Shown: positions 4,406 through 40,640 of the stretch, one piece after another | Position numbering within the stretch: the stretch's first letter is position 1 | How the letters are laid out: each line of letters opens with the position of its first letter | Source of the DNA: Candidatus Uhrbacteria bacterium | GTDB taxonomy: Bacteria > Patescibacteriota > Patescibacteriia > UBA9934 | Length of the DNA stretch: 64,000 nt | NCBI GenBank assembly: GCA_018673485.1 | Contig: JABHCP010000005.1 | Span: forward strand, 102 to 64,101 | Direction: 5' to 3' | The notes under the pieces: generated by a model | What the model was told of the DNA's origin: nothing | Seen by the model: only the letters and a program-made list of their open reading frames with translations | Databases searched by the model: none | Translations under genes and position numbers: made by a program

Positions 4406-6220
4406 ATGAAAAAATCTGTGTTCAAAACTATCGCTAGTGTTGCCGCAGTTTTTATTTTTATAGAAGCCATGTTTGCGATTGGGTGGGTTTTGGGAGGAGA
4501 TTTTCAGGTGGTCGATATTACCGTGCCCGTTTTTGGACAGGAAGATATACCGGTTGTTGCATTCACTGTAAACGACCAACCTCAGTCATTGTACGACTGG
4601 GCATATGATCAGGCTAAGGACGTCGAGCATGTTGATGCGAAGTCAGCGATCGTGGCTCACCACCTTGTTGTGGCGGACGAGATCGCAAAAGTTTTTGAGA
4701 CACTTTCAGACGATAGTGTCGATACAGTAATTATTATGAGCCCGAATCATTTTGATCTTGGAGCAACTACTATTCAAACAACCATGGGAAGTTGGGATAC
4801 ATACTATGGCGAGGTTGAGGCTGATCAAGATCTGATTGAGGATTTGGCGGGTGATATTGAGGTGCTGCGAATTGAAGACGAGACTTTCGAGTATGAACAT
4901 GGAATCAGTGGACTCTTACCGTTTGTGGCACGATCATTTCCTGATGCTAAGATTGTTCCACTCGTGATTCATGAGTCACTCAGCGATGAAGATCGAGATA
5001 CACTCGCTGAATCAATCAATGAGCATGCTAAGAACGCAGTTATTTTTGCCAGCATCGACATGTCTCATAATTTACCGGAGCATACTCAAAATTTTCATGA
5101 TGAGATCACTCTACGAGCGTTGGAGATAGGGGATGCTCAAGATATTGAGTTAGAGATCGATGCGAATGTTGTGTTAAATACGCTATTGGCGATAAACAAC
5201 GATCAGGGAAGCCAAGAGTGGCACCTAACACATCATGACAGTTCGCTGGGTATGGAGCTCACTGATAATTACACCGAAAACACAAGCCACATCCTTGGAT
5301 ACTTCACAGATGGTGAATCGTATGATGATATTTTTGCCACACTTCACATTGTGGGGGACATAATGCTCGACCGTGGGGTACGATCATTACTCGAGTCTGA
5401 AGGCCAGGACTATCCATGGTTGAACATGGGGCGATTTTTGTCAGGGGCTCATACTGTTATCGGAAATCTCGAAGGGACAGTGAACGAACTGGCTAGTACA
5501 TATACAGTTTATCCACCATTTAGATTTGTTTTTTCACCTGATTCGATCGAAGTCATGAATGAATATATCGATGTCGTCAGTTTGGCCAATAATCATGCAA
5601 GTGACGTGGGATCGGCTGGTTTGCAGGAGACGAAAGACCGTCTCGACGAGATGGAGATCCCTTGGTTTGGGTCATACGCAACGCCTGTGCCGCGATATGA
5701 CGAGACCCTCAACGGAATCGACCTAACATATATCGGCTATCATCAGTTTCAACCAGATTCGATCGAACTAGTAGCACAGATTGAAGCAGCGGATGATGAA
5801 GGTCGATTTGTAACCGTGTTTCCGCATTGGGGGAGTGAGTATGTTGTAGCTCCAAGCTCATCACAGCGTGAGTTGGCTCAGTTGATGGTTGATGCCGGCG
5901 CAGATTTGATCATTGGAGGACATCCACATGTGGCGCAGGGGATAGAGATTATCGATGATGTGCCTGTGGTTTACTCGTTGGGTAACTTTATCTTCGATCA
6001 AATAGATCCAGCGACATATCCAGCGCTCACCGCAGGTTTGATAATCGATGATAGCGAAATCGAGATTTACCTCATGCCAGTTTGGACGCAAGGAAGCCAG
6101 CCAACGCCGATGAGCGATCAGGAAGCACTGGATTTGTTCTCAGACCTAGCAGAAGTTTCATCAGATGAGCTCGTGACACAAATAAAAAACGGTGTTATAA
6201 CAACATCATATACAAAATAA
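4406..6220 (+). CDS. membrane-anchored fusion: Memo-like (AmmeMemoRadiSam-B) domain plus CapA-type metallophosphatase domain
   Basis: N-terminal TM helix. Memo motifs HH, SPNHF, EHGISGLLPF, IDMSH. CapA/PGA motifs GNLE, SLANNH, GSEY, LIIGGHPHVAQG, YSLGNFIFDQ. Confidence 0.8.
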   Translation: MKKSVFKTIASVAAVFIFIEAMFAIGWVLGGDFQVVDITVPVFGQEDIPVVAFTVNDQPQSLYDWAYDQAKDVEHVDAKSAIVAHHLVVADEIAKVFETLSDDSVDTVIIMSPNHFDLGATTIQTTMGSWDTYYGEVEADQDLIEDLAGDIEVLRIEDETFEYEHGISGLLPFVARSFPDAKIVPLVIHESLSDEDRDTLAESINEHAKNAVIFASIDMSHNLPEHTQNFHDEITLRALEIGDAQDIELEIDANVVLNTLLAINNDQGSQEWHLTHHDSSLGMELTDNYTENTSHILGYFTDGESYDDIFATLHIVGDIMLDRGVRSLLESEGQDYPWLNMGRFLSGAHTVIGNLEGTVNELASTYTVYPPFRFVFSPDSIEVMNEYIDVVSLANNHASDVGSAGLQETKDRLDEMEIPWFGSYATPVPRYDETLNGIDLTYIGYHQFQPDSIELVAQIEAADDEGRFVTVFPHWGSEYVVAPSSSQRELAQLMVDAGADLIIGGHPHVAQGIEIIDDVPVVYSLGNFIFDQIDPATYPALTAGLIIDDSEIEIYLMPVWTQGSQPTPMSDQEALDLFSDLAEVSSDELVTQIKNGVITTSYTK

Positions 6221-9821: not shown

Positions 9822-12800
9822 ATGGCGTCTATGGTTACATGCGGGATATACAAAAATGATAGACTTACTCTATCTCTAATCGTGATAATAATTGCGCTTG
9901 GGATTTTTTCTTTCCAATCTAAAGTAGCGAATGCTGCACCCTATGATTGTTCGGCAGACGCAAACTGTGTCGCCCAATACAATTTTGAATCGGGCGCACT
10001 CACTACAGACTCAGAGGGCACTAATACACTGACTTCTAATGGGTCTCCAGACGAAGATGCGCTAAATTATAGACAGGGATCAGGGTCTGTTGATTTGAGT
10101 AGAACTCCAGGTGATTGGTATTCTGTATCAGATGCAAGCTTAGACGCCGATTTTCCAGGGAAGGTAGTGTCAAGTATGTCTTCATGTTTTTGGGTAAGGC
10201 CAGAAGAGGCATCTCCGGATGGAAATCGTTACATCATGTCTAAATTTGCTGCCACTCCCAGCCCTTTCATAGTTCAATATACAACTGCCAGAAAGATCAA
10301 AGTTTTTATAGGTGCATCAACTAGTACGCTCGAGCATGCAACAGCGCTTACTGTAAACCAGTGGTATCACGTTTGTTTTTCCTATGACAACGCTGATGAT
10401 TCTGGAAGGATACACATATACGATGACACAGGCGCGGCTACATTGGGGTCAGATGCGACAGGAACTTTCAGTTCAAGTATGACTACCGATGCAACAGACA
10501 ATTTTGTAATTGGGTCGAACTCTGCTGGGGCGGTCAATAATAGATTTGAGGGTAATATTGATGAAATGTTGATTTTTAAGGACGTTCTTTCTACTGGCGA
10601 GATGGATACTATTCGAGCTGGGGCAACACCAAACCCCGATGTTGTTATTGTTTCAACGCCAGTACAATATAAAACGTTTCAAAGAACAACGGATACTACG
10701 GGGCCGATTGCAATCACTGGACAATACGCTGGAAGTCCTACGGCTATCGAGTGTAGTTTTGATAGTGGTGCATATGCCACAGTCGATGCCACGCCAAGCT
10801 CAGGGTCCTGGAGTGGAACGCTGACTGGTTCTGTTGGTGATGGATCGCTTCAGTGTCGATTCACGAATGATACAGATGTGAATGTGACCATATCGGACGT
10901 ACGTATGGGAGATGTCTATATGGTGATTGGACAAAGTAACGCTCATGGTAGGGGGGACAATGATCAGTCTTATACTGGGTCAAACCATGGAGCATCACAG
11001 TTTGATACTTCAGACAACTGGGAGGCACTTGGTGATAGTAATGATTTTCTTTCAGCACTCTATGGTTCTGTATGGCCACTTTTAGGAACGTTGCTCAATG
11101 ATAATGACAACATTCCTGTGGCATTTATTGGATATGCTTCTGGCGGTACAGGTTTTACTGGGAATGATTGGAATCAAGGTGATTCGGCATACAATGCGGC
11201 CGTTAATCAATTTAATGATAGTGGAGTGAATGATATTAAAGCTTTCTTGTGGTATCAAGGTGAGAATGATGCGTCGTTAGGGATGAGTGCAAGCGCTTAT
11301 GAAACAGCTCTCAGTGCAATGCTCAATGATTTGCAAAGTGACCTTTCGACTAGTGCACCATTGGTAGCAGCGCTCATAGGTGAACATAATACTGCCACGG
11401 ATTCTGAGATAGATGCCATTCGCACAGGGTTGATTAATGCATGGACCAATGATGCAGATATTTACGCGGGGCCTACAGCTCATGATCAAGAATTCACAGA
11501 CGATGTTCATTGGACGTCAGATGCCGAGATAACAATATTGGCACAACGTTGGTATCGGGTGCTAAGTTCACATTTTTATTCAGGCAGTGAGGCTGTTCGT
11601 GGACCAATATTTTCTTCTGCAGAGCGAATCGCTGTGCAATTGATTAATATTGTTTTCTCTGGCGGAGAGGGGAGCTTGAATGACGAAACAGATACAGAGG
11701 GTTGGGTTATAAAAGATGGCGGTACCCCAGTTTCTCTCGATAGCGTGACCCGCCTTGATGCCACTACAGTGCAGATTGACACAAGTGCGAACATGATAGG
11801 AGTAGTTACAGTGGATTATTTATCAGGAGATAGAGATGCTGATGCTGCTTGGCGTGATAGTGGAACATATCCTTTACCTCCTGAGCCAGTATTAGCTCAG
11901 ACCGTTTCTACACCACCATTGGCACTAACGTTTTCACCAGCAGACAATGTAACTGGCGCAGATCCCAATGCCAACTTAGTGATAACTTTTTCTGAAAGCG
12001 TTACACCGCAAGCTGGCGCGTCTAATGACATTATCATTAAAAGGACTAGTGATGATACAACGGTGGAGACAATTGATGCCCAAAGCGTGAGTGTGACCGG
12101 TGGTGGTACATCGTCAATTACTATTAATCCTGCAACCCTGCTCTACAATACAGAATATTATGTGCAGGTCGGGGCTGATGCATTTGATGCAGGTGATGGT
12201 GATAGTTACGCTGGAGTTTCAGATACTACAAGTTGGGGCTTTACTATATTTGGTTCAAGTCAAAGTACGAGCTCATCATCCTCTACTTCCTCATCGGATT
12301 ATTCAATTAGTGTTGAGTTACCGAATGGGGGCGAGGTTTTAGAGGGCGGAGAAAACTATGATATATCTTGGAGCACTGACGGAACAGGTAGTTCGCAGGT
12401 AAGCTTTGTAAATCTGTACTACTCTTTGGACGCTGGAGAAACATATATTTCTATAGCAACGAATATTATAAATAGTGGTAGCTACGCATGGGATGCGCCT
12501 TTCATTGAAGGCGCAGAAGTTGTGGTGAAGGTTGAAGGAACAGATCTGGCGATCACTTTGGCGTCAGATACCTCTGATGCGGTGTTCGCCATTGAAACCG
12601 AAGTGGGAGTCAGCCAAGTGATTGATAGTAGCCCGGAGATTGGTGTTTCCCCAGTCACCGGAGAGCCCCAAGAGATTGATATAGTGACAAGCGGTGATTA
12701 TATTAGTGGAGAGTCGTTCGACACTGTTTATTATATCGATGATGAAATGGAGCGCAGACCGTTTTCAAGCGCAACTGTATACTTCACTTGGATGGAGTCA

Positions 12801-13118
12801 TTTGAGGGCATTGAGACGGTCACAGACGCGACTTTAGCCTCTCTTGATCTTGGATTGCCAATGCTCCCTAAAGCTGAGGTAGTAATGGTTAAAATTCAGT
12901 CAGATCCCAAAGTTTATGCGATTGAGGGTGATAATACATTAAGATGGGTTGCAAGCGAGGCGGTAGCGTCCGAGCTTTATGGAACAAATTGGTCAGATTA
13001 TATAATCGATATTGAACCAACTTTTATTGCACGATTTGAAAAGGGTGAGGATATATTGTCTGCCGACGATTACAGTCTCGATATCTCAAAAGCAAAGCAA
13101 CGGAAGGATCTACAATAG
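9822..13118 (+). CDS. large secreted multidomain protein: LamG/ConA-like lectin domain, SASA(DUF303)-type carbohydrate esterase domain, Ig-like domains
   Basis: Signal/TM at the N-terminus. LamG-like region NQWYHVCFSY...GNIDEMLIF. SASA motif GQSNAHG. Ig-like (Big) repeats PADNVTGADPNANLVITFSESV. Confidence 0.75.
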   Translation: MASMVTCGIYKNDRLTLSLIVIIIALGIFSFQSKVANAAPYDCSADANCVAQYNFESGALTTDSEGTNTLTSNGSPDEDALNYRQGSGSVDLSRTPGDWYSVSDASLDADFPGKVVSSMSSCFWVRPEEASPDGNRYIMSKFAATPSPFIVQYTTARKIKVFIGASTSTLEHATALTVNQWYHVCFSYDNADDSGRIHIYDDTGAATLGSDATGTFSSSMTTDATDNFVIGSNSAGAVNNRFEGNIDEMLIFKDVLSTGEMDTIRAGATPNPDVVIVSTPVQYKTFQRTTDTTGPIAITGQYAGSPTAIECSFDSGAYATVDATPSSGSWSGTLTGSVGDGSLQCRFTNDTDVNVTISDVRMGDVYMVIGQSNAHGRGDNDQSYTGSNHGASQFDTSDNWEALGDSNDFLSALYGSVWPLLGTLLNDNDNIPVAFIGYASGGTGFTGNDWNQGDSAYNAAVNQFNDSGVNDIKAFLWYQGENDASLGMSASAYETALSAMLNDLQSDLSTSAPLVAALIGEHNTATDSEIDAIRTGLINAWTNDADIYAGPTAHDQEFTDDVHWTSDAEITILAQRWYRVLSSHFYSGSEAVRGPIFSSAERIAVQLINIVFSGGEGSLNDETDTEGWVIKDGGTPVSLDSVTRLDATTVQIDTSANMIGVVTVDYLSGDRDADAAWRDSGTYPLPPEPVLAQTVSTPPLALTFSPADNVTGADPNANLVITFSESVTPQAGASNDIIIKRTSDDTTVETIDAQSVSVTGGGTSSITINPATLLYNTEYYVQVGADAFDAGDGDSYAGVSDTTSWGFTIFGSSQSTSSSSSTSSSDYSISVELPNGGEVLEGGENYDISWSTDGTGSSQVSFVNLYYSLDAGETYISIATNIINSGSYAWDAPFIEGAEVVVKVEGTDLAITLASDTSDAVFAIETEVGVSQVIDSSPEIGVSPVTGEPQEIDIVTSGDYISGESFDTVYYIDDEMERRPFSSATVYFTWMESFEGIETVTDATLASLDLGLPMLPKAEVVMVKIQSDPKVYAIEGDNTLRWVASEAVASELYGTNWSDYIIDIEPTFIARFEKGEDILSADDYSLDISKAKQRKDLQ

Positions 13119-13156: not shown

Positions 13157-13231
13157 TGGTGCCGGAGGAGGGAATTGAACCCCCGACGCAGGGCTCTTCA
13201 GGCCCTCGCTCTACCACTGAGCTACTCCGGC
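13157..13231 (-). tRNA. tRNA-Phe(GAA)
   Basis: gccggagtagctcagtggtagagc...ctGAAga...ggttcaattcc...cca. Confidence 0.9.
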
Positions 13232-13315
13232 GTCATTTCTGATATTATAACCCTTCATTGTAAAACATTGAAGAGTAGTGGTTCCACCACCAATTTGTAT
13301 TGATGAGGAAGCCTC

Positions 13316-13392
13316 TGGTGGGTGTGGGAGGACTCGAACCTCCGACTTCAGTCTTATCAGGACTGCGCTCTAACCACCTGAGCTACACACCC
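13316..13392 (-). tRNA. tRNA-Ile(GAT)
   Basis: gggtgtgtagctcaggtggttagagc...ctGATaa...ggttcgagtcc...cca. Confidence 0.9.
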
Positions 13393-13500
13393 GTTATGTA
13401 TATCAAAAGCGCGATAATCATACGTAAATTTTGACGTTTAGTCAAGGGATATTAGACCCTTGCTATATGTAGAAAAATTTGGTATATTTCTCACGCAAAA

Positions 13501-13577
13501 CGGGGATTAGCTCAGTAGGCTAGAGCGCTTGGTTTGGGACCAAGAGGTCGTGAGTTCGAGTCTCGCATCCCCGACCA
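13501..13577 (+). tRNA. tRNA-Pro(TGG)
   Basis: cggggattagctcagtaggctagagc...ttTGGga...gttcgagtc...acca. Confidence 0.85.
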
Positions 13578-13637: not shown

Positions 13638-16160
13638 GTGGTTTTTTGTTGCAATGAGAGTGAATATTTCTTTAGTCATACAGCGCAAAATTTGATAGAC
13701 TTATATATATCTATGATGCCAAAACCAATTGAATTTCACTATAAAAAATATCGTATTTTACCGGATAATAAAACGGTCAAGTTTGATTATCAAATCATAT
13801 TTTCAAATCAGGAGCCACTAGAGTTTACTGAAACCATACGATTGCCAAGGGCCTCAATGAAGCTTTGCTCGAAGGATATGAAGCCCTTCCTTGAAGCGCT
13901 TTTGATAATTTTGGGAATTAGTTATTACAAGCTATATCTTCCTAAGAAAGTGATTTTGCCATTCGAGCTTTCAAAAGAACAGGCTGAGTTTTGGAACACA
14001 GTTTATCGAAAAGGTCTTGGTGAGCTATTATATCGAAACAAGATTGATTCTAAGCAACTGGCAAAGTTTCAGAGTTCTAAGGTTGTGGTCGGACCGGTAT
14101 CGATTGAAACGAAAGACCGGGGGTTGCTTGGAATTGGGGGAGGTAAGGATTCAATCGTGGCGGCTGAGTTGCTAAAGGAAGACGGCTATGATTTCTCTTC
14201 GTTTGTGGTTGAGACGCAACGCAAGGATCTTGTAGTAGAAAAAGTAATGAAGGAAATCGGCAAGCAAAAAATGATCGTTAGGCGAGTGCTTGATCCTAAG
14301 ATCTTTGAAGAGCACGAAGGAAGTTTTGATGGGCACATTCCAATCTCTGCGATCTTTGCATTTATTGGATTGTTAACCTCAGCTGTTTACGGTTATAAAT
14401 ATGTAATGGTTGGGAATGAGCATAGTAGCAATTTTGGCAATATCAAACATAAAGGCGAGATAATTAACCATCAATGGAGCAAGACAGCGGAGTTTGAGAA
14501 TTTGCTTCAGGAATATACTTGCAAATTCATTACAGCAGATATTTCGTATATTTCAGTTCTGCGACAGTTTTATGAGATTCGGATTGCCAAAATGTTTGCG
14601 ACGCAAAAGAAGTATTTTAAGAGTTTTTCAAGTTGTAACCGTAGTTTTAGGGTTCATAAAGAGAGGACGGGTTCATTGTGGTGTGGCGAGTGCGCTAAGT
14701 GTGCATTTACTTTTTTGATTCTATCGCCATTCATGCCTAAAAAAGATTTGGTTGAAATTTTTGGTAAAAATCTTTTAAATGATAAGCGTCTTGAGTTAAT
14801 GTATCGTGATATTCTAGGTTTTGGAAAATTAAAGCCGTTTGATTGTGTTGGAACATTTGAAGAATCGCGCGTTGCTTTCTGGATGTCTGCGAAAAAATAC
14901 AAGAAGGATTTTATTGCAAAGAAGTTTGTGCAAAAGATTAAGGACGCGAAAAAATCTTCTAAAGAAGTATTGAGTACTGTGCAAGCACCTACGTTGCCAA
15001 CTAAGTTTAGATTTTTAGGAATTGAGAATATCTGTATCTTAGGATATGGAAAAGAAGGCAAGGTAACAGAGGCGTATTTGAAAAAGTTTCATCCAAAGCT
15101 CGATATTGGTATTTTAGATCAAGCTCACGATAAAAACTATCTTAAGGGTCAAGGTGAATTCGATCTTGCAGTGAAGACTCCCGGGATTTCAAAAGACAAA
15201 GTTACTATCCCATATGTGACTGCGACAAACTTATTCTTCTCAAAGATTTCAAATTTGACGATTGGAGTGACGGGAAGTAAGGGGAAGAGCACGACTGCGA
15301 GTTTGATTTATCAAATGCTTAAGGCTGATAATCAAAAAGTTCGATTGCTTGGTAATATTGGAAATCCAATGTTGAAGGTTTTGAATGGTAAAATTAATCC
15401 AAAAGAGATCTTTGTTATTGAGCTTTCAAGCTATATGCTTGATGACATTGAACACTCGCCAAATATCGCTGTGCTTTTGAATTTATTTCCAGAGCACATG
15501 GATTATCACGGAGGAGTTGACGCTTATTACGCGTCTAAGAATAGAATTTTTAAATATCAAAAGTTTGGTGATGTTTCAATTAAGTTTCCGTTTAATGAAA
15601 AGATTCCAGTTAAGGATTCTGAGGTCTCTCTTATTGGCGCTCATAATAAAAAGAATATTAAGGCTGCGATTTCAGTTGCACGACTTTTAGGAATATCAAC
15701 TGCATCAATTTCTAATGCAATTAAAGGATTCAAACCTTTGAGCCACCGATTGGAAGTTATTGGGGAGTTTAATCAGATCAGATTTATCGATGACGCAATT
15801 TCAACAACGCCAGAATCAACAATAGAGGCAATGAAGTCTATAAAAAATATCAAAACTATATTTTTAGGTGGGGAAGATCGTGGATATGATTTTAAGGAGC
15901 TTGAAAAACAAATTCGAAAAGCTAAAATTGAGAATATTGTTTTATTCCCAGAGACAGGCCGTCGAATGTTATCTTCAGCTAAGGGTCTAAATGTACTCAA
16001 AACCAAGAGTATGTCAGAGGCTGTGAAGTTTGCTTATCGATTCACGCCAAAGGGTTCTGTTTGTCTGCTTTCGACAGCGTCTCCGAGTTACAGTATTTGG
16101 AAGGATTTTGAGGAGAAGGGAGACTTATTTCAAAAGTTTGTTAAAAAATATGCAAAGTAA
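13638..16160 (+). CDS. murD: fusion protein: N-terminal PP-loop ATP-pyrophosphatase-like domain (candidate MurL-like epimerase) plus C-terminal UDP-N-acetylmuramoylalanine-glutamate ligase (MurD)
   Basis: The C-terminal half carries Mur ligase motifs (GVTGSKGKSTT, DAYYASK, LIGAHNKKN, KGFKPLSHRLE). The N-terminal ~450 aa has a GGGKDS (SGGxDS-like) PP-loop and a CGECAKC motif. Continuous ORF with no internal stop. True start may be the MMPKPIEF Met. Confidence 0.8.
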   Translation: MVFCCNESEYFFSHTAQNLIDLYISMMPKPIEFHYKKYRILPDNKTVKFDYQIIFSNQEPLEFTETIRLPRASMKLCSKDMKPFLEALLIILGISYYKLYLPKKVILPFELSKEQAEFWNTVYRKGLGELLYRNKIDSKQLAKFQSSKVVVGPVSIETKDRGLLGIGGGKDSIVAAELLKEDGYDFSSFVVETQRKDLVVEKVMKEIGKQKMIVRRVLDPKIFEEHEGSFDGHIPISAIFAFIGLLTSAVYGYKYVMVGNEHSSNFGNIKHKGEIINHQWSKTAEFENLLQEYTCKFITADISYISVLRQFYEIRIAKMFATQKKYFKSFSSCNRSFRVHKERTGSLWCGECAKCAFTFLILSPFMPKKDLVEIFGKNLLNDKRLELMYRDILGFGKLKPFDCVGTFEESRVAFWMSAKKYKKDFIAKKFVQKIKDAKKSSKEVLSTVQAPTLPTKFRFLGIENICILGYGKEGKVTEAYLKKFHPKLDIGILDQAHDKNYLKGQGEFDLAVKTPGISKDKVTIPYVTATNLFFSKISNLTIGVTGSKGKSTTASLIYQMLKADNQKVRLLGNIGNPMLKVLNGKINPKEIFVIELSSYMLDDIEHSPNIAVLLNLFPEHMDYHGGVDAYYASKNRIFKYQKFGDVSIKFPFNEKIPVKDSEVSLIGAHNKKNIKAAISVARLLGISTASISNAIKGFKPLSHRLEVIGEFNQIRFIDDAISTTPESTIEAMKSIKNIKTIFLGGEDRGYDFKELEKQIRKAKIENIVLFPETGRRMLSSAKGLNVLKTKSMSEAVKFAYRFTPKGSVCLLSTASPSYSIWKDFEEKGDLFQKFVKKYAK

Positions 16161-16168
16161 AAAGTAAT

Positions 16169-16651
16169 ATGAAATATTTATCTTTTCTAATTTTAATTCC
16201 AACACTTGTATTGGTTGGTGGGGCATGTCAGGGACCCGATGGTGAGGTGGAGGAAGTTAGTTATGAAGAAGACGTCTATGAGCTCATTGAGGAAGTCGAT
16301 GGTGACAACCTGATCAAAGGAAGTTGCAATATGATCTCCATAGGTAGCAACTGTGTTGATTTTGTCGGCTCTATTTGGACCCAGGACATGATGGAAATGA
16401 GTTGTTCGGGAGATGGGTATGAGTTCTCCAATCTAACATGCCCATACTCAGATTATGGGGGATGTCAGTCCATGCCAAACACAATGAGCGAGAGTATCGC
16501 GTGGGTTTATAGCTATGGCGGCGTAGCATATTCGGCTGAGGATGCAATGTATGCGCAGATGACTTGTGATTCGCTCGGCGTTGCTCAATGGGTCACACCA
16601 GAGAATATGGATGCAATGCGCGCTCAGGTGGCTGAGGAATTAGGTGAGTAG
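16169..16651 (+). CDS. Cys-rich lipoprotein, hypothetical
   Basis: Signal peptide plus lipobox LVLVGGAC. Confidence 0.6.
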   Translation: MKYLSFLILIPTLVLVGGACQGPDGEVEEVSYEEDVYELIEEVDGDNLIKGSCNMISIGSNCVDFVGSIWTQDMMEMSCSGDGYEFSNLTCPYSDYGGCQSMPNTMSESIAWVYSYGGVAYSAEDAMYAQMTCDSLGVAQWVTPENMDAMRAQVAEELGE

Positions 16652-17988: not shown

Positions 17989-19483
<1,495 letters not shown>

Positions 19484-20730: not shown

Positions 20731-21102
20731 GTGTTTATGAAGTTTAATTACGAACGGATGGATATTACAAGCGATGTACATAAACTTATACGCGAAGTTT
20801 ATCAGCTTTCTTGTATTTTTCCTGATGATGAAAAATTTAATCTTGTATCTCAAGTGAAGCGTGCGTCTACATCCGTACTTTTAAACATTGCAGAGGGTAG
20901 TAGTCGAAGATCGGCCGCAGATTACCGAAGGTTTGTTATAATGGCGATAGGCTCAGCAGTTGAACTAGACGCAGTATTGAAGCTTGCAATTTCAATTGGG
21001 TATTTAACTCAAGATGAATACTTGCGTATCGAGCCAATGATTAAAACTGTATATTTCAAGCTTATTAAATTGCGCAAATCACTCGAAAAGAAAACATTTT
21101 AA
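20731..21102 (+). CDS. four-helix-bundle protein (TIGR02436 family, 23S-rRNA-IVS-type)
   Basis: FKFxxL...FPKxEKFxLxxQxxRAxxSxxxNIAEGxxR...A.GSxxEL signature. Confidence 0.75.
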   Translation: MFMKFNYERMDITSDVHKLIREVYQLSCIFPDDEKFNLVSQVKRASTSVLLNIAEGSSRRSAADYRRFVIMAIGSAVELDAVLKLAISIGYLTQDEYLRIEPMIKTVYFKLIKLRKSLEKKTF

Positions 21103-24683: not shown

Positions 24684-26258
24684 TTACCGGCGGAAGGCCT
24701 TGGGGCCTGCCTTTTCGACCTTGGCGTGCTCGGCCTCCAGGATCTCGAGCTCGCCCTGCAGGTGCGAGCGTTCGGTCTTGAGCTCGGAGATGAGCTCGCG
24801 GGCCGCCTGCTTGTCCTCCTCGTCCATGTGGGCCATGGAGCCGCCCAGGCTGCTGATCTTGCCCGGGATCTCGTCCAAGCGGAACTGCCTGGCCAAGACT
24901 TGCTCCACGAGCAGACCGATCTTGGCGTCGAAGGCGGCCTGGGCCTTGGCATTGCGCTCCTGGCGTGCGGCCTGGGCGCGTGCGGCTGCGCGGCTGCGCT
25001 TGTTGCCGCTGGGCTTGGCCGTGGGGTTGGGGTACTGCGGACCTCGCTGCTGCGACTGGCCGGGGCGACGGATGTTGCCCTGGTTCTGACGCGGCCGCGG
25101 GTTGTGCTCACGGTCGGGCCGGATCTCGAAGCCCAAGATGCCCGCGAGGGCCTCCTGGAGCGTGATCGAGACCATCATGCCCTGCTCGATGAGCTTGCTG
25201 GTGCAGCTCGTACCGAAGCCGTAGGCGCTCTGTCCCTTGACGATGGCACCCATCGCCTTCCAGTTGCCCTTGCCGTCGGGGCAGTCGCAGAGCTCGGGGG
25301 CGTTGGCGTGCACGACGCAGATGGTGCGACCATCATCGGTCTTGCGACCGAAGTTGACGCGCTCACCGGCCAAGATAGCCTGCGCGAGCTCGAGGATGGT
25401 GCTGAAGCCATTGCGCTCCGGCTCAGGCTCGGGCTCGGGGGCCTCGGCTTCGCGCTCCGGCTCGGGCTCGGGGGCCTCGTTGTTGCGGCACTGGTCGGCG
25501 GTCTTCACGCCGCGCGCGATCTTGAGCGCGTCGGCAAAGGAGAAGGTCTCGAACTCCAGGTCTTCGACCTGGTCCAAGCACTTCTGGCAGAAGCAGGCAG
25601 CGAAGCGGCCGTTGACGATTCCACGCATCTCCTGCGCGGTACCGCTCGTGCCGCACCCGCAGGTGCACCAGTTCATGAACACATCGCCGACCTTCTCAAC
25701 CCGGTGTTTGCCGATCTTCTGACCCTCGATGAAGGCCTTGACCAGGCGCTGGGCCTTGGACACGGACTCCTGGGCCTGCTTGGCACCCAGGGTCTTGGCC
25801 TCGACCGTCTCCATCATCAGAGTGACGGGCTGGTCGTTGTTATCCGTGACGGTCAGGACTTCCTTGCCGTCATCGAACTCACCGGTGCCCCAGCAGACCT
25901 CCATGGACTCACGGCAGCCGTCGCAGATTCGGGTGTTGTCATCGAGTCCTTCGGGCAGGTTGACCAGAGCCAGGAGCAAGTCCGGGTTGGTCTGCGCGAT
26001 GACGCGGGCGAACAGCGTCGCGACACCCTCGAAGGTGCCGTTGATCTGCGGGTTCGGCACGTAACCCAGGTGCTCGGGGACCATGGTCCCGCATAGCACG
26101 CACGGTTCGGCCTTCTTCATGTGCGCCGCGCCCGTGCGGCACTTGCCGCTCTTGCGGATCGGCTTGCCGTGGGTTTCGCAGCGCTGGCCCGCGCTTCCGA
26201 CGCAGTCGTAGCTGGTGGTGGGGAGCAGGGGGTGGGTGGTGGTCAGGGAGAGGGACAT
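24684..26258 (-). CDS. Cys-rich hypothetical protein (high-GC islet, ~63% GC) with EAPEPEPE acidic repeats
   Basis: Long ORF with GC3-rich codons. Start at MSLSLTT with a GGAGG Shine-Dalgarno. The overlapping plus-strand ORFs are treated as GC artefacts. Confidence 0.6.
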   Translation of the reverse strand: MSLSLTTTHPLLPTTSYDCVGSAGQRCETHGKPIRKSGKCRTGAAHMKKAEPCVLCGTMVPEHLGYVPNPQINGTFEGVATLFARVIAQTNPDLLLALVNLPEGLDDNTRICDGCRESMEVCWGTGEFDDGKEVLTVTDNNDQPVTLMMETVEAKTLGAKQAQESVSKAQRLVKAFIEGQKIGKHRVEKVGDVFMNWCTCGCGTSGTAQEMRGIVNGRFAACFCQKCLDQVEDLEFETFSFADALKIARGVKTADQCRNNEAPEPEPEREAEAPEPEPEPERNGFSTILELAQAILAGERVNFGRKTDDGRTICVVHANAPELCDCPDGKGNWKAMGAIVKGQSAYGFGTSCTSKLIEQGMMVSITLQEALAGILGFEIRPDREHNPRPRQNQGNIRRPGQSQQRGPQYPNPTAKPSGNKRSRAAARAQAARQERNAKAQAAFDAKIGLLVEQVLARQFRLDEIPGKISSLGGSMAHMDEEDKQAARELISELKTERSHLQGELEILEAEHAKVEKAGPKAFRR

Positions 26259-26353
26259 GGTGCCTCCAAGTCGCAAGTTTTTGACTTATAGAGGTTTTTC
26301 AGACGTTGCGCGGATCACACAACGGTTGCGTCCCAAAGCGGACGAAACAGGGA

Positions 26354-28203: not shown

Positions 28204-29355
28204 TTACCTCTGGTAGTTAGGCGTGATTGCTCCTACGGGACACATTCCAGCACAGGCGTTGCATGAGATGCACTTGTCTGAGATGGAAGCTGTCTTCCCG
28301 GATTTGCCGGGGACGATCGACATGGCTCCAAACAGACAGGCAGTCTCACATCTGCCGCAGCCAGTGCAGCGTGCAGTCTGAACAGTTGGTGATTTCCCAG
28401 CAAAGCAGTGGCTATTCGCCAGACTTTGCGTGAGGCCCACGAACTCGGAGAGATCATGGAGACCCCACTCGTTTTCTTGAAGGAAATCGCGCAAACCATT
28501 CGTGATGACGCGAAGTGAGCTTGGGCCGTGCAATGCTGGATACGTATAGAGCTGAACTGCTGAGGCGCCTGCCATAAGCATCTGCAATACATCGTCAGAA
28601 GAGCAAATGCCACCGACGCCTACGGTCGGAATGTCGACAGCTCGAGCAATTTCGTACACGCAACGAAGTGCGATGGGGAATATTGCTTTTCCAGAGAGGC
28701 CTCCTGCGCCGCCCTGTGTTCCGAGCTTTGGATATCCCGTCCCGGTGTCAATTAGTAACCCTGGCCCAATTGAGTTTGTGCACACGATCGCGTCTGCTCC
28801 ATGCCTCTCTGCGTGCCGTGCCATACCAACTACAAATGGGGAATAGGATAGCTTAACCCAGATAGGGGTTTTTGTAGCTGGCCTTATCACGGCCATACTA
28901 CTGGCCAAATGGTCGAAATCTACATTAAGGTTACCATGAAGCGCACCAGAGTGAGAGCATGAGAAGTTGATTTCATAGGCATCCACGCCAATTTGATCAA
29001 ATTCACGAATCATCTGAACGCAGCCTTCAGGGTCTCTGGCGCTCAAGGATACAATGATGGGGCCCCCAGTGTCCTTTACTTGTCGGACCCATTGATCGCG
29101 CCAGTTATCCCAGCCGAATTCATTACCCCACTCGCAGTTGAGCATGGAGTCTTCGCCAGGAATGATCGCGTATCTGGGAACTGGAACCCGTTTTCGTTCA
29201 TCTGGAACGATTTTTTTGAGTGATCGCGTCACGATCGCCGAGCATCCATGAGGAATAGCCTCCATGAAGAAGCTGGGCGTTTCCGTGATGTACCCCGAAG
29301 CAAGAATGATCGGAGTATTGAAGCTGATACCGTTAACCTGAACGCTGAGGTTCAT
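28204..29355 (-). CDS. dihydroorotate/dihydropyrimidine dehydrogenase-like protein with C-terminal 2x[4Fe-4S] ferredoxin domain (PreA-like)
   Basis: DHOD-family TIM-barrel motifs (ASG, GADAIV.TNS, GLSG, GVGGI). C-terminal CxxCxxCxxxC, twice. Confidence 0.75.
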   Translation of the reverse strand: MNLSVQVNGISFNTPIILASGYITETPSFFMEAIPHGCSAIVTRSLKKIVPDERKRVPVPRYAIIPGEDSMLNCEWGNEFGWDNWRDQWVRQVKDTGGPIIVSLSARDPEGCVQMIREFDQIGVDAYEINFSCSHSGALHGNLNVDFDHLASSMAVIRPATKTPIWVKLSYSPFVVGMARHAERHGADAIVCTNSIGPGLLIDTGTGYPKLGTQGGAGGLSGKAIFPIALRCVYEIARAVDIPTVGVGGICSSDDVLQMLMAGASAVQLYTYPALHGPSSLRVITNGLRDFLQENEWGLHDLSEFVGLTQSLANSHCFAGKSPTVQTARCTGCGRCETACLFGAMSIVPGKSGKTASISDKCISCNACAGMCPVGAITPNYQR

Positions 29356-38657: not shown

Positions 38658-40640
38658 TTATTCTTCCCCAGCTTCTTCTGTGAGGTCTTCTTCAATCATT
38701 TCGATGTCGTCATCATCATCTGAAGTTTCCGATTCATCAATTGATTCACATTCTTCACCTTCTGCGCACTCAACAGTGAGCTCCTCGACTCCTATCAGAC
38801 ATATCATCGGCAGTGATCGATATACAGATGTGTAAGTTTCACTAAATTGTGTTTCGTCTGCGTAGTCCACGTAGTAGGTAAACTGCGCGGTTGCACCTGG
38901 GTGAGGGGACTGGCAAGATGTTACCCCAGGGTCAAGATCAAGAGTTTCTGTATATTCTGTTTCACCATAGCCTGCCCATGAAAGTATTACAGGCGGTGAA
39001 TAATAGCCATTGCGTCCATCGTTTGTTCCCCAGAAAGTGAATATAACATCAAGAGTGGCGAGATCCACTTCAGTGTTGAGTAAAATATAGTCTTCGTAGT
39101 CATTTGTGAACTTAAAGTCCGGATATGGGTCGTAGATAGTCGCATCAGTTCCAGGATTTCCATTACTTGGATCGTTATAATAAGAAACAACTAGTGAGTG
39201 ATTTTGTCGTTGGTCAATCTGGAGTCCAGAGTTCATTACGGCTCTAAAGGCGGTTGTTCCAATCTGGCACAATCCACCACCTACCTCTGGAATAATCTCA
39301 TCACCCTTGATCACCAGTTCTGCTAGGTATCCATCAGAAACAGTAAAAGGCCCGAGCATTCCAACGAGTGAGATTGTCTCGCCAGGCGCGATCAAAAGCC
39401 CGTCGAGCTTAGATGCACCATGTTGAATGTTTGATATTCGATTTGATGGAGACCCAGAGAAGTCAGATATTCCTACACCAATAATTTCTGAGATGCCAAA
39501 GTTATTAACGTCAGCGGTAGAAACGTCTGGCGGAGTGTTGGCAACAGTTATATCAATTACAACATCCTCTTGACCAAGCTCATCGAAGAGTTCCTGCATA
39601 GTGGTTTTAGAATCGAGTTCAATTCCATCTTGGCTACCAGAGAATTCGGTAACGATGTTGTCCTCCATTACAAATCGGGCGTTCACTGGACTGATGTTTA
39701 CGTCATCCGTCACATCTTCCACGAAAGCTTCGTAGGTGCCACCTGCAAAGACAATTATTACATCACCGTCTTTTGAATATGCTGGCTCTATCCAGTCTGA
39801 TATCTCATCTGCGTCCACAGTCCACCAATATTCACGTAGAGTCTCCGAGGTGTACGTAAGGTAGTACGGGGCAGCTTCCACGATCTCGATAACTTCATCG
39901 CTGATTGAAAGCGCATCATCAGATGTCATTTCATACGTGATGTCACGCAAGTTGATGGTTATGTCCTCGAGCTCCAGGTCGTTTGCATCATCCCAAAGTG
40001 CTGCGATAGCGGATTCATAATCAATTTCTGTACCATCTTTCCCTGGCATGAATTTCACAGGAGCCTCTGCATCGTTAAGATTAACTCTGTAGTCAGCTGG
40101 CAATGACTGTGTTTCAAGTTCGCCAAATTGTTGTGTTAGTTGCTCGCGAATGTCATCCTCATCGATCTCAGATGGCCGTAAGAGTACAGTTGGTTCTATT
40201 AGAAGTTTTATTGGTGTAGTTAAGTTTGTCCAAATGGAGTCCGTTCGCCCCACAGCCATGGCGACCTCAATAGCATCAGCGGTATCAATATATATTAAGT
40301 CATGCGCTAGGTCAGGCTCTTCAATAATTGACGCTCTTAGGTCGATGTGACCTGATTGACCATCTACGGTAACATCAACGCCATTATTTAGCATGTCGTC
40401 AACATGTTGCTGTAAAACCTCGGTAGCATCTGCTTCAGATAGTTCTCCAACGTCAGCAATGCCGATGAAAACATTCGGCAATATGCGACCTTGATATGCT
40501 CTTGCATAAGCAAACGAGCTAGCACTGATTGCGATAGCAATGAATAAAACAATACCGGTCGTAATTAAGATCGGTTTTTTGTAACTGCGGACTGTGTCGA
40601 CGCTAGTTTTGATGAATTGTGCCATATTATATTTTATCAA
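38658..40640 (-). CDS. VanW family protein
   Basis: N-terminal TM; VanW core GGGLCQIGTTAFRAVMNSGL; acidic C-terminus. Confidence 0.75.
   Translation of the reverse strand: MIKYNMAQFIKTSVDTVRSYKKPILITTGIVLFIAIAISASSFAYARAYQGRILPNVFIGIADVGELSEADATEVLQQHVDDMLNNGVDVTVDGQSGHIDLRASIIEEPDLAHDLIYIDTADAIEVAMAVGRTDSIWTNLTTPIKLLIEPTVLLRPSEIDEDDIREQLTQQFGELETQSLPADYRVNLNDAEAPVKFMPGKDGTEIDYESAIAALWDDANDLELEDITINLRDITYEMTSDDALSISDEVIEIVEAAPYYLTYTSETLREYWWTVDADEISDWIEPAYSKDGDVIIVFAGGTYEAFVEDVTDDVNISPVNARFVMEDNIVTEFSGSQDGIELDSKTTMQELFDELGQEDVVIDITVANTPPDVSTADVNNFGISEIIGVGISDFSGSPSNRISNIQHGASKLDGLLIAPGETISLVGMLGPFTVSDGYLAELVIKGDEIIPEVGGGLCQIGTTAFRAVMNSGLQIDQRQNHSLVVSYYNDPSNGNPGTDATIYDPYPDFKFTNDYEDYILLNTEVDLATLDVIFTFWGTNDGRNGYYSPPVILSWAGYGETEYTETLDLDPGVTSCQSPHPGATAQFTYYVDYADETQFSETYTSVYRSLPMICLIGVEELTVECAEGEECESIDESETSDDDDDIEMIEEDLTEEAGEE

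What the first reader, a model, noticed from the sequence alone, without database searches (positions are those of the whole stretch)
13638..16160. MurD ligase fused to a ~450-aa PP-loop domain: candidate MurL-MurD (L-Glu ligase plus epimerase) fusion
The C-terminal half is an unambiguous MurD. The N-terminal half carries a GGGKDS PP-loop (adenylate-forming ATP pyrophosphatase signature) and a CGECAKC motif, but no other Mur ligase motifs. Xanthomonads have an alternative pathway in which MurD2 adds L-Glu and the ATP-dependent epimerase MurL converts it to D-Glu. A physical fusion would be a Rosetta-stone link and would imply this organism lacks glutamate racemase.
Basis: partly seen in the sequence, partly recalled or inferred. 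Interest (0 to 1): 0.7.

Follow-up and report, generated by a model that had tools for sequence, protein, structure and literature searches.

The report
Fused MurL epimerase–MurD2 ligase gene
This gene from an ultra-small (CPR/Patescibacteria) bacterium joins in one protein the two enzymes of the alternative cell-wall route first found in Xanthomonas (add L-glutamate, then flip it to D-glutamate), and the same route, fused or as a coupled gene pair, is common across this large bacterial group.

Summary
ORF 13638-16160 is real, but the conserved start is ATG 13713 (815 aa). Residues 1-436 match the NCBIfam MurL model over nearly its whole length (E=5.5e-95). They are 34% identical to MurL of Plantactinospora, whose family includes biochemically validated MurLs. 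They fold (pLDDT 92.8) around a PP-loop ATP-pyrophosphatase core closest to QueC/Cap9, with a GGGKDS loop and a 4-Cys site. Residues 437-815 are a complete Mur ligase that passes the MurD cutoff. At the experimentally defined stereospecificity positions it has the MurD2 (L-Glu) residues: E, R, P and Y for E. coli D182, K348, A414 and L416, plus Ile for K319. In 80 related genomic loci murL is always fused to, or abuts, such a murD: 30 are fused, and 16 of the unfused overlap by 4 nt (ATGA). The fusion arose several times. More than 1,300 homologues were found, and the 120 best are all fused CPR proteins. Databases already detect the domains, but the searchable literature reports neither the fusion nor the pathway in CPR. 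Absence of murI could only be checked in the window. Verdict: a new architectural variant and a large taxonomic extension of a known pathway.

The parts
13638..13712 (+). 5' extension of the mechanical ORF (GTG start), probably not translated
   Evidence: Homologues start at the position of M26 and cover 97% of the 840-aa query. No obvious Shine-Dalgarno sequence precedes either start.
13713..16160 (+). murL::murD2 fused gene (815 aa plus stop)
   Evidence: The full-length AF2 model has pLDDT 88.3 and pTM 0.82.
13713..15020 (+). [quoted passage not shown]
   Evidence: NF041275 E=5.5e-95. 34% identity to Plantactinospora MurL, E=2e-80. AF2 pLDDT 92.8 and pTM 0.92.
14100..14732 (+). PP-loop ATP-pyrophosphatase-fold core of the MurL module (approx. 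residues 130-340; boundaries approximate)
   Evidence: Foldseek against the PDB: TtuA 4e-6, Cap9 (TM relative to target 0.69), QueC (0.58-0.61), argininosuccinate synthase, MnmA, LarE, ThiI. Alternating strand/helix pattern from residue 134.
14136..14153 (+). PP-loop motif GGGKDS (ATP pyrophosphate binding)
   Evidence: Present in 137 of 150 family representatives. G143, G144, K145, D146 and S147 are invariant in 56 diverse sequences.
14466..14483 (+). NHQWSK family signature (H253 and K257 invariant)
   Evidence: It was used as the search pattern.
14634..14702 (+). Putative 4-Cys metal site: C308 (SCN) plus C324-x2-C327-x2-C330 (CGECAKC)
   Evidence: C-x2-C-x-K-C is present in about 139 of 150 representatives. 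All four Cys are lost together in P0223, as expected for one structural metal site. Resemblance to QueC's 4-Cys zinc site is from my own knowledge and was not tested.
14832..14855 (+). KPFDCVGT motif with invariant C378, candidate catalytic residue
   Evidence: P375, C378 and V379 are invariant in 56 sequences. C378 is retained in P0223, which lost the other four Cys. The catalytic role is inferred.
14997..15059 (+). Junction: MurL C-terminus (PTKFRFLG) runs directly into the first strand and GxGxxG of MurD (ICILGYGKEG); no linker
   Evidence: pLDDT is 93-96 across residues 430-450 of the full-length model.
15021..16157 (+). MurD2-type ligase module (residues 437-815)
   Evidence: TIGR01087 248 bits, above the 212 cutoff; Mur_ligase_M and Mur_ligase_C. 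PDB MurD hits to 2.3e-46.
15273..15293 (+). Mur ligase ATP P-loop GSKGKST (E. coli K115 equivalent)
15486..15503 (+). FPEHMD: Glu at the E. coli D182 position (X. oryzae MurD2 E197), next to catalytic H183
   Evidence: Determinant defined in PMC8788868.
15525..15545 (+). YYASKNR: equivalent of the carbamylated K198
15789..15809 (+). DDAISTT: Ile at the E. coli K319 position
   Evidence: Never Lys in 74 MurL-associated MurDs. E. coli K319T gains L-Glu use (PMC8788868).
15867..15893 (+). GGEDRGYDF: Arg at the E. coli K348 position (MurD2 R358)
16071..16094 (+). STASPSYS: Pro and Tyr at E. coli A414 and L416 (MurD2 P433 and F435); glutamate-binding loop
   Evidence: It is the only segment with pLDDT below 50 in the full-length model, residues 790-798.

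Best explanation
The gene encodes a bifunctional enzyme of the alternative D-glutamate branch of peptidoglycan precursor synthesis. The C-terminal MurD2-type Mur ligase module uses ATP (giving ADP and phosphate) to add L-glutamate, not D-glutamate, to UDP-MurNAc-L-Ala. The N-terminal MurL module then uses a second ATP (giving AMP and pyrophosphate) at a PP-loop site to adenylate the alpha-carboxylate of the new terminal L-Glu. That makes its C-alpha proton acidic. [quoted passage not shown] Shown here: homology of both modules, the PP-loop fold, the MurD2 signature residues, obligatory genetic coupling, and a rigid junction without a linker. Taken from published experiments on Xanthomonas, Micromonospora and Salinispora enzymes: the chemistry and the ATP-to-AMP stoichiometry. 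Inferred: that the CPR enzyme keeps the same activities; that invariant C378 and/or H208, H253, K257, E236 and E262 act as acid/base or form a thioester; that the four other cysteines hold a structural metal; and that fusion favours hand-over of the L-Glu intermediate, so the cell needs only L-Glu and no free D-Glu pool.
For: MurL module: NF041275 E=5.5e-95 over profile positions 28-423 of 447; 34% identity and E=2e-80 to Plantactinospora MurL. Its 318 bits lies in the same sub-cutoff range as Micromonosporaceae (417), alphaproteobacterial (415) and other CPR (303-441) homologues. The window has every residue that is invariant in 56 diverse homologues. PP-loop fold with pLDDT 92.8 matches the reported AMP formation (PMC5808125; PMC8788868). 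MurD module: catalytic K115, N138, E157, H183 and K198 equivalents are present, and specificity positions read E, R, P, Y and I like MurD2. The same pattern is seen in 61-72 of 74 MurL-linked MurDs, including the Micromonosporaceae control, and differs from E. coli (D/K/A/L/K) and S. agalactiae MurD (T/R/A/W/K). Linkage: 30 fused and 43 adjacent among 80 loci, 16 with an ATGA overlap. In L009 the fused gene lies between murE and murC. No murI, class-IV aminotransferase or second murD in the window.
Against: No enzymology exists for any CPR member. The MurL score is below the NCBIfam equivalog cutoff (318 against 700). 12 of 74 MurL-linked MurDs keep Asp at the D182 position, so the signature is not absolute. 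Arg at K348 also occurs in canonical Gram-positive MurD. Absence of murI was tested only in 64 kb, and at least one CPR bacterium has a functional glutamate racemase. I had no Xanthomonas MurD2 or MurL sequences for direct alignment or phylogeny; the determinants were read through E. coli numbering given in the review. Channelling and the roles of individual MurL residues are inferences, because model coordinates could not be inspected.
Confidence: 0.85

Rival explanations
1. The N-terminal module adenylates the Glu alpha-carboxylate as MurL does, but the CPR version resolves the adenylate differently. For example, attack by ammonia would make iso-glutamine (a soluble-stage analogue of MurT/GatD), or the carboxylate would be modified in some other way. 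D-Glu would then come from elsewhere, such as murI or the host.
For: PP-loop enzymes such as QueC, NAD synthetase and asparagine synthetase commonly turn adenylated carboxylates into amides, and these are among the fold neighbours. Identity to validated-clade MurL is only about 34%. Some CPR do have MurI.
Against: Homology spans the full MurL length and all family-invariant residues are kept. The partner ligase carries the L-Glu (MurD2) signature, which makes sense only if an epimerase follows. No glutaminase or ammonia-donor domain is fused, and none was found among the scanned ORFs of the window, including the two neighbours.
Confidence: 0.07
2. The C-terminal module is an ordinary D-Glu-specific MurD, as pipelines annotate it. 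The N-terminal PP-loop domain belongs to an unrelated family such as a tRNA thiolase or QueC and is fused by chance.
For: TIGR01087 (MurD) is passed. Many source names say 'UDP-N-acetylmuramoylalanine--D-glutamate ligase'. There are weak PP-loop hits to MnmA and tRNA_Me_trans.
Against: The MnmA and QueC similarity is limited to about 35 residues around the PP-loop (hhalign probability 2.8%), against E=5.5e-95 for MurL. D182, K319, K348 and A414 of canonical MurD are all replaced. Validated-clade MurD2 homologues also pass TIGR01087 (L078, 292 bits), so that model does not discriminate stereospecificity. Linkage to murD in 73 of 80 loci is not chance.
Confidence: 0.03
3. The long ORF is an artefact, for example a sequencing frameshift that merges two overlapping genes, or a chimeric assembly.
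For: Unfused relatives have a 4-nt ATGA overlap, so a single-base error could merge the two genes.
Against: The best 120 database homologues are all fused, one is identical and another is 81% identical. The junction is conserved in sequence and length in 26 genome loci plus the window. The junction is confidently modelled.
Confidence: 0.01

Closest known systems
[quoted passage not shown] 2017, as summarised in PMC8788868 and PMC5808125)
   Same: Full-length homology (NF041275, E=5.5e-95). The size is about 440 aa. It is tightly linked to an L-Glu-type MurD. The PP-loop found here fits the reported ATP-to-AMP requirement.
   Different: Here it is the N-terminal module of a single 815-aa polypeptide rather than a separate protein. 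The host is CPR/Patescibacteria, not Proteobacteria or Actinobacteria. Identity to the Micromonosporaceae homologue is about 34%, and the score is below the Xanthomonadales-tuned cutoff.
[quoted passage not shown]
   Same: Mur ligase with all catalytic residues and the MurD2 residues at the stereospecificity positions: E, R, P and an aromatic residue at X. oryzae E197, R358, P433 and F435.
   Different: It is fused C-terminally to MurL and trimmed to about 379 aa, with deletions of about 10, 12 and 34 residues relative to E. coli MurD. It has Tyr instead of Phe at the last position.
[quoted passage not shown]
   Same: Same fold, three-domain organisation, P-loop, and H183 and K198 equivalents. 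It passes TIGR01087.
   Different: D182 becomes E, K319 becomes I, K348 becomes R, A414 becomes P and L416 becomes Y. Identity to E. coli MurD is 29%. The predicted substrate is L-Glu.
QueC and the QueC-like Cap9, within the PP-loop ATP pyrophosphatase superfamily (TtuA, MnmA, ArgG, LarE, ThiI, NAD synthetase)
   Same: The fold of the central approx. 200 residues. An SGGxDS-type PP-loop (here GGGKDS). Adenylation of a substrate carboxylate or carbonyl. A C-terminal Cys-x(n)-Cys-x2-Cys-x2-Cys cluster.
   Different: No significant sequence-profile similarity beyond the PP-loop (hhalign probability 2.8%). There are extra N-terminal alpha/beta (approx. residues 1-125) and C-terminal helical (approx. 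340-436) subdomains. The outcome is epimerisation rather than amide, nitrile or thio-product formation.
Other bifunctional Mur fusions recognised by NCBIfam (MurE/MurF PRK11929, MurC/Ddl PRK14573, MurF/Alr PRK11930)
   Same: Fusion of consecutive or functionally coupled steps of UDP-MurNAc-peptide synthesis. MurF/Alr is also a ligase joined to a D-amino-acid-forming enzyme.
   Different: The partners differ. No curated model for a MurL-MurD fusion appeared among the NCBIfam hits.

Membership tests
[quoted passage not shown] | Full-length sequence homology to characterised MurL | tested here: met
   E=5.5e-95 over profile positions 28-423 of 447. 34% identity and E=2e-80 to Plantactinospora MurL. 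Homologues carry PF26298 and PF26299.
[quoted passage not shown] | Score at or above the NCBIfam equivalog cutoff (700 bits) | tested here: not met
   318.5 bits. The cutoff is specific to Xanthomonadales: Micromonosporaceae (417), alphaproteobacterial (415) and other CPR (303-441) homologues also fail it. This is therefore not a test of function.
[quoted passage not shown] | Genetic coupling to an L-Glu-type MurD (both genes needed together in X. oryzae) | tested here: met
   Covalently fused here. Fused or adjacent in 73 of 80 related loci.
[quoted passage not shown] | ATP- and Mg-dependent, AMP-forming, unidirectional L-to-D epimerisation of the terminal Glu | not testable with these tools
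   Indirect support only: a conserved PP-loop motif and fold, which are typical of AMP-forming adenylation.
[quoted passage not shown] | Host genome lacks glutamate racemase and D-amino-acid aminotransferase | tested here: inconclusive
   None in the 64-kb window or within 6 kb of murL in 80 loci. Whole genomes could not be scanned, and another CPR bacterium has MurI.
MurD2 (L-Glu-adding MurD) | Mur ligase domains with intact catalytic residues (P-loop Lys, N138, E157, H183, carbamylated K198) | tested here: met
MurD2 (L-Glu-adding MurD) | Glu at X. oryzae E197 (E. coli D182) and Arg at R358 (E. coli K348); the E197D/R358K double mutant switches MurD2 to D-Glu | tested here: met
   FPEHMD and GGEDRGYDF. 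Determinants from PMC8788868.
MurD2 (L-Glu-adding MurD) | Pro at P433 and an aromatic residue at F435 (E. coli A414 and L416) | tested here: met
   STASPSY gives Pro and Tyr.
MurD2 (L-Glu-adding MurD) | L-Glu, not D-Glu, accepted in vitro | not testable with these tools
   Needs an enzyme assay.
Canonical MurD (D-Glu ligase, TIGR01087) | Score above the TIGR01087 cutoff | tested here: met
   248.4 bits against 211.95. MurL-linked MurDs of the validated clades also pass (L078 at 292, L077 at 285), so the model does not separate MurD from MurD2.
Canonical MurD (D-Glu ligase, TIGR01087) | D-Glu-recognition residues D182, K319 and K348 (E. coli) | tested here: not met
   They are E, I and R in the window.
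PP-loop ATP pyrophosphatase superfamily | SGGxDS-type PP-loop after the first strand of a Rossmann-like alpha/beta core | tested here: met
   GGGKDS follows strand 134-140. Foldseek probability about 1.0 to TtuA, QueC, Cap9, ArgG and MnmA.
QueC family proper | Sequence-profile similarity over the QueC domain | tested here: not met
   hhalign against E. coli QueC aligns 58 columns around the PP-loop only, with probability 2.8%. There is no Pfam QueC hit.

The most novel reading that the evidence does not exclude
The MurD2/MurL route, not glutamate racemase, is the main way a large part of the Candidate Phyla Radiation puts D-Glu into its cell wall. [quoted passage not shown] These host-dependent bacteria would then need only scavenged L-Glu and never make free D-Glu. 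The MurL core is a QueC-like PP-loop adenylating domain whose invariant Cys378 takes part in C-alpha inversion, which would settle the so-far 'unclear' mechanism of the only known ATP-dependent epimerase.
Probability: 0.4. Interest if true: 0.6.

Novelty: new variant of a known kind. Interest (0 to 1): 0.45.

Why it matters
The MurD2/MurL pathway has been presented as a curiosity of xanthomonads, a few alphaproteobacteria and rare actinomycetes, and as a narrow-spectrum drug target (PMC8788868). This gene and its relatives show three things.

- **Distribution.** The pathway is widespread in CPR/Patescibacteria. The family has 2,451 representatives at 50% identity, and at least 595 hits were found among species-representative genomes.
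- **Repeated fusion.** Evolution has welded the two enzymes together several times. This is independent genomic confirmation that they act as one unit.
- **Fold assignment.** MurL, described as lacking known domains, has a PP-loop adenylating core with a QueC-like cysteine cluster and a short list of invariant candidate catalytic residues. That gives concrete targets for mutagenesis.

Practically, automatic annotations of these proteins as 'D-glutamate ligase' or 'hypothetical' are wrong or incomplete. Metabolic reconstructions that score CPR genomes as lacking D-Glu supply would also be misled. The compact, well-modelled fusion is an attractive construct for structural work on MurL, for which no structure is in the PDB.

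Tried and rejected
- **Solved MurL structure by sequence:** none found. Only a PP-loop match to MnmA at E=0.015.
- **Genome scan, first attempt:** A 12-sequence alignment worked, but the best 80 loci did not reach Xanthomonadales. I used Plantactinospora (Micromonosporaceae) as the nearest stand-in for the validated enzymes.
- **Composition proxy:** I looked for high-GC (Xanthomonas or Micromonospora) members among the top 150 representatives and found none.
- **QueC at sequence level:** hhalign of the MurL family against E. coli QueC found nothing significant beyond the PP-loop. I dropped 'QueC family member' and kept 'PP-loop fold, QueC-like'.
- **Literature:** searches for the fusion, for MurL in CPR, for murI in CPR, and for MurL with PP-loop found nothing relevant, apart from a cited title on MurI activity in Ca. 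Saccharimonas. That paper itself is not held.
- **Extra domains:** the longest fused representatives (883-914 aa) contain only MurL plus a full-length MurD.
- **murI:** none in the window or in the 80 loci. This is a weak test, because only about 13 kb per genome was available.
- **GC-rich island at 24.7-26.3 kb:** no tandem repeats.
Full report
**1. The observation**

A single ORF runs from 13638 to 16160 on the + strand (840 aa, GTG start). GGGKDS is at nt 14136-14153 and CGECAKC at nt 14682-14702. Pfam finds Mur_ligase_M and Mur_ligase_C only in the C-terminal part. The N-terminal half gets only a sub-threshold PP-loop hit to the tRNA_Me_trans HUP domain.

One correction concerns the start. 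Almost all of the best 120 homologues are 811-825 aa, cover about 97% of the query, and begin at the position of M26 (MMPKPIEF). The likely start is ATG 13713, giving 815 aa. Neither candidate start has a clear Shine-Dalgarno sequence. Residue numbers below count from M26.

**2. What organism this is**

- The window carries a bacterial 16S rRNA (17993-19483, minus strand) with no 23S or 5S nearby, and five tRNAs.
- It also has a compact set of housekeeping genes: uvrA, uvrC, trmD, truD, smc, clpP, recQ, tsaD and tsaE.
- The source names carried by the closest homologues of the fused protein nearly all point to Patescibacteria/CPR: Uhrbacteria, Moranbacteria, Pacebacteria/Paceibacterota and the Parcubacteria group.
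- The gene is not in a dcw cluster here. It lies between a tRNA cluster and a small lipoprotein-like ORF.

**3. The N-terminal module is MurL**

- NCBIfam NF041275 (MurL_Xanthmoales) matches residues 55-445 of the 840-aa ORF at E=5.5e-95, covering profile positions 28-423 of 447.
- The score (318 bits) is below the curated 700-bit cutoff, but that cutoff is tuned to Xanthomonadales. A standalone MurL from Plantactinospora scores 417 bits, an alphaproteobacterial one 415, and other CPR homologues 303-441. Plantactinospora belongs to the Micromonosporaceae, the family of Micromonospora and Salinispora, whose MurL/MurD2 were validated in vitro (PMC8788868).
- The window module is 34% identical (E=2e-80) to the Plantactinospora protein over residues 8-410.
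- An exhaustive search of 1.84 billion representatives found 2,451 family members at E<=0.001. Of the top 150, 120 are standalone (about 440-460 aa) and 21 are fused (at least 700 aa).
- UniRef already auto-names a standalone Roizmanbacteria member as the epimerase. Homologues carry precomputed Pfam families PF26298 and PF26299. Databases therefore recognise the domains.

**4. Fold and conserved chemistry of the MurL module**

- AlphaFold2 with a 50-sequence alignment gives pLDDT 92.8 and pTM 0.92.
- Foldseek against the PDB returns only PP-loop ATP pyrophosphatases as significant hits: TtuA (4e-6), Cap9 (TM relative to target 0.69), QueC (0.58-0.61), argininosuccinate synthase, MnmA, LarE and ThiI. 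This fits the published finding that MurL consumes ATP and releases AMP. It also fills the gap stated in both reviews, that MurL 'lacks known conserved domains' (PMC5808125; PMC8788868).
- At sequence-profile level the link to QueC is limited to the PP-loop (hhalign probability 2.8%). This is a fold-level assignment, not family membership.
- GGGKDS is present in 137 of 150 representatives, and C-x2-C-x-K-C in about 139 of 150.
- In a 56-sequence alignment the invariant residues include G143, G144, K145, D146, S147, H208, E236, H253, K257, N309, K329, P375, C378 and V379.
- One representative (P0223) has lost C308, C324, C327 and C330 together but keeps C378. I read the four as one structural metal site and C378 as a candidate catalytic residue. 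Both readings are inferences.

**5. The C-terminal module is a MurD2-type ligase**

It passes TIGR01087 (248 bits against 212) and matches solved MurD structures down to 2.3e-46. The review of the Dairi group's work gives the stereospecificity determinants:

- X. oryzae MurD2 E197, R358, P433 and F435 replace E. coli D182, K348, A414 and L416.
- The E197D/R358K double mutant switches MurD2 to D-Glu.
- E. coli K319T gains L-Glu use.

I aligned the module to E. coli MurD. Literature numbering equals translation position minus 1, checked on K115, N138 and H183. The window then has E (FPEHMD), R (GGEDRGYDF), P and Y (STASPSY), and Ile at K319.

Across 74 MurL-linked MurDs the catalytic residues K115, N138, E157 and H183 are conserved in all, and K198 in 73 of 74 (one gap). 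The specificity positions are:

| E. coli position | Residues in 74 MurL-linked MurDs |
|---|---|
| D182 | E 61, D 12 |
| K348 | R 70 |
| A414 | P 63 |
| L416 | Y or F 66 |
| K319 | I, L or F 72; never K |

The Plantactinospora partner shows E, R, P, Y and L. Canonical MurDs differ: E. coli has D, K, A, L and K at D182, K348, A414, L416 and K319, and S. agalactiae (3lk7) has T, R, A, W and K at the same positions. TIGR01087 does not separate the two kinds, since the MurL-linked MurDs of Plantactinospora and the alphaproteobacterium also pass it. This explains the prevalent 'D-glutamate ligase' annotations.

The module is trimmed to about 379 aa, with deletions of roughly 10, 12 and 34 residues relative to E. 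coli MurD.

**6. Genomic linkage and origin of the fusion**

The best 80 loci were kept.

- They are mostly CPR. They also include Plantactinospora, several Alphaproteobacteria and a Solirubrobacteraceae MAG.
- In 30 loci MurL is fused N-terminally to MurD.
- In 43 loci a separate murD is adjacent, nearly always murL followed by murD on the same strand. The remaining loci are cut by contig ends, except L081, which has no murD within 6 kb.
- The commonest unfused arrangement is a 4-nt ATGA stop/start overlap (16 loci). One small indel would therefore fuse the genes.
- Four Saccharibacteria-labelled loci have the order murD then murL.

In an NJ tree of the MurL module, the window and 26 fused loci form one clade. 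Four other fused genes (L046, L049, L052, L076) sit among unfused ones. This tree has no bootstrap support and is crude.

Junction anatomy agrees with it. The main clade has a conserved ...P.xF[RK]FLG[IM]xN..ILGYGKEGK... junction, with about 140 residues between the DCVG motif and the MurD P-loop. L046 (162), L049 (115) and L076 (111) differ in length, and L052 differs in sequence. The fusion therefore arose at least three or four times.

Operon context also fits. In L009 the fused gene lies between murE and murC. In L010 murE follows it. In L076 murC is adjacent.

**7. The fused protein as a unit**

The full-length model has pLDDT 88.3 and pTM 0.82. The junction (residues 430-450) has pLDDT 93-96, so there is no flexible linker. 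The only segment below pLDDT 50 is residues 790-798, the S-P-S-Y glutamate loop. This is compatible with a fixed arrangement of the two active sites. I could not inspect coordinates, so channelling remains an inference.

**8. D-Glu supply**

- No Asp_Glu_race protein, class-IV aminotransferase or additional Mur ligase was found among about 57 window ORFs scanned with Pfam.
- Six-frame phmmer with E. coli MurI found nothing in the window or in the 80 loci, even at E<=10.
- This is weak evidence, because the window is a small part of the genome.
- A 2024 paper, known to me only by its title as cited in PMC11974145, reports glutamate racemase activity in Ca. Saccharimonas aalborgensis. CPR are therefore not uniformly murI-less.

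**9. Mechanism proposed**

1. The MurD2 module activates UDP-MurNAc-L-Ala as an acyl phosphate (ATP to ADP) and adds L-Glu. This is established Mur ligase chemistry plus the MurD2 signature shown here.
2. The MurL module binds the new C-terminal L-Glu and adenylates its alpha-carboxylate at the PP-loop (ATP to AMP and PPi). AMP formation is published; the PP-loop is shown here.
3. The activated ester makes C-alpha-H acidic. Inversion occurs by enzyme acid/base residues, through a C378 thioester, or through an oxazolone formed with the preceding Ala carbonyl. This step is inferred.
4. [quoted passage not shown]

The route costs two ATP per D-Glu but removes any need for free D-Glu.

**10. Comparison with the known, and novelty**

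The pathway and both enzyme families are known. Their functional partnership was established experimentally, so the fusion is confirmatory rather than revelatory as a Rosetta stone.

Three things appear undescribed in the literature I could search:

- the fused bifunctional architecture;
- the large CPR distribution, since the reviews list only Gamma- and Alphaproteobacteria and actinobacteria, with low-similarity orthologues in a fungus, cyanobacteria and an amoeba;
- the PP-loop/QueC-like fold of MurL.

All three are, however, within reach of anyone looking at InterPro or AlphaFold DB. Subscription-journal papers were not searchable, so prior description cannot be excluded.

I classify it as a new variant of a known kind and score interest at 0.45.

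Noticed in passing
window 4406-6220 (+): A 604-aa protein fuses a Memo-like (LigB-type) domain to a PGA_cap (CapA-like, poly-gamma-glutamate capsule family) domain. This is another glutamate-polymer-related gene in a genome that may make D-Glu only on the muropeptide.
   Followed up: no
window 9822-13118 (+): A 1,098-aa secreted protein has LamG-like, SASA (sialate O-acetylesterase-type carbohydrate esterase), Big_5 and Kre9-like Ig domains. It is a plausible surface or host-interaction protein of an episymbiont.
   Followed up: no
window 17993-19483 (-) and 20731-21102 (+): A complete 16S rRNA has no 23S or 5S anywhere in the 64 kb, so the rRNA genes are unlinked. A gene for a '23S rRNA intervening sequence protein' (PF05635) lies 1.2 kb away.
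   Followed up: no
window 24684-26276 (both strands): A compositional island of about 57% GC sits in a background of about 44%. Long ORFs overlap on both strands. The 530-aa minus-strand product is Cys-rich, has an (EP)n stretch and matches no family. There are no tandem DNA repeats. It may be foreign DNA.
   Followed up: partly
window 28204-29355 (-): A dihydroorotate-dehydrogenase-like domain is fused to two 4Fe-4S ferredoxin motifs, resembling the PreA/dihydropyrimidine-dehydrogenase type.
   Followed up: no
window 16169-16651 (+): A 160-aa ORF starts 8 nt after the stop of the fused gene. It has a signal peptide and a lipobox-like ...VGGAC motif and matches no family. It may be co-transcribed with murL::murD2.
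   Followed up: no
window 13157-13577: tRNA-Phe and tRNA-Ile (minus strand) and tRNA-Pro (plus strand) lie directly upstream of the fused gene. The gene is outside any dcw/mur cluster here, unlike in L009, where it lies between murE and murC.
   Followed up: partly
window 38658-40640 (-): A 660-aa protein with VanW and PG_binding_4 domains, another cell-wall-associated gene in the window.
   Followed up: no
protein P0223 (MurL representative), alignment A4: This standalone MurL homologue has replaced all four cluster cysteines (C308D, C324S, C327S, C330S) but keeps invariant C378 and the PP-loop. The metal site therefore seems dispensable.
   Followed up: partly
loci L064, L070, L074, L080: Four loci (three labelled Saccharibacteria, one labelled only 'bacterium') have the reverse gene order (murD then murL). 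Their MurD partners have a variant signature: Phe at E. coli K319, Ala (Pro in L080) at A414, and Phe at L416. They form their own branch in the MurL tree.
   Followed up: partly
loci L006, L025, L028, L045, L072: Records titled 'uncultured Gammaproteobacteria bacterium' (TPA assemblies) carry CPR-type murL genes that cluster with CPR sequences in the MurL tree; two of them (L006, L025) are fused. These bins are probably mislabelled.
   Followed up: no
locus L081 (Plantactinospora sp. WMMC1484 chromosome) and L078: In these actinomycetes murL is not followed by murD. In L078 the murD2-type gene is divergently transcribed upstream. In L081 no murD was found within 6 kb. The tight coupling seen in CPR is therefore not universal.
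   Followed up: no
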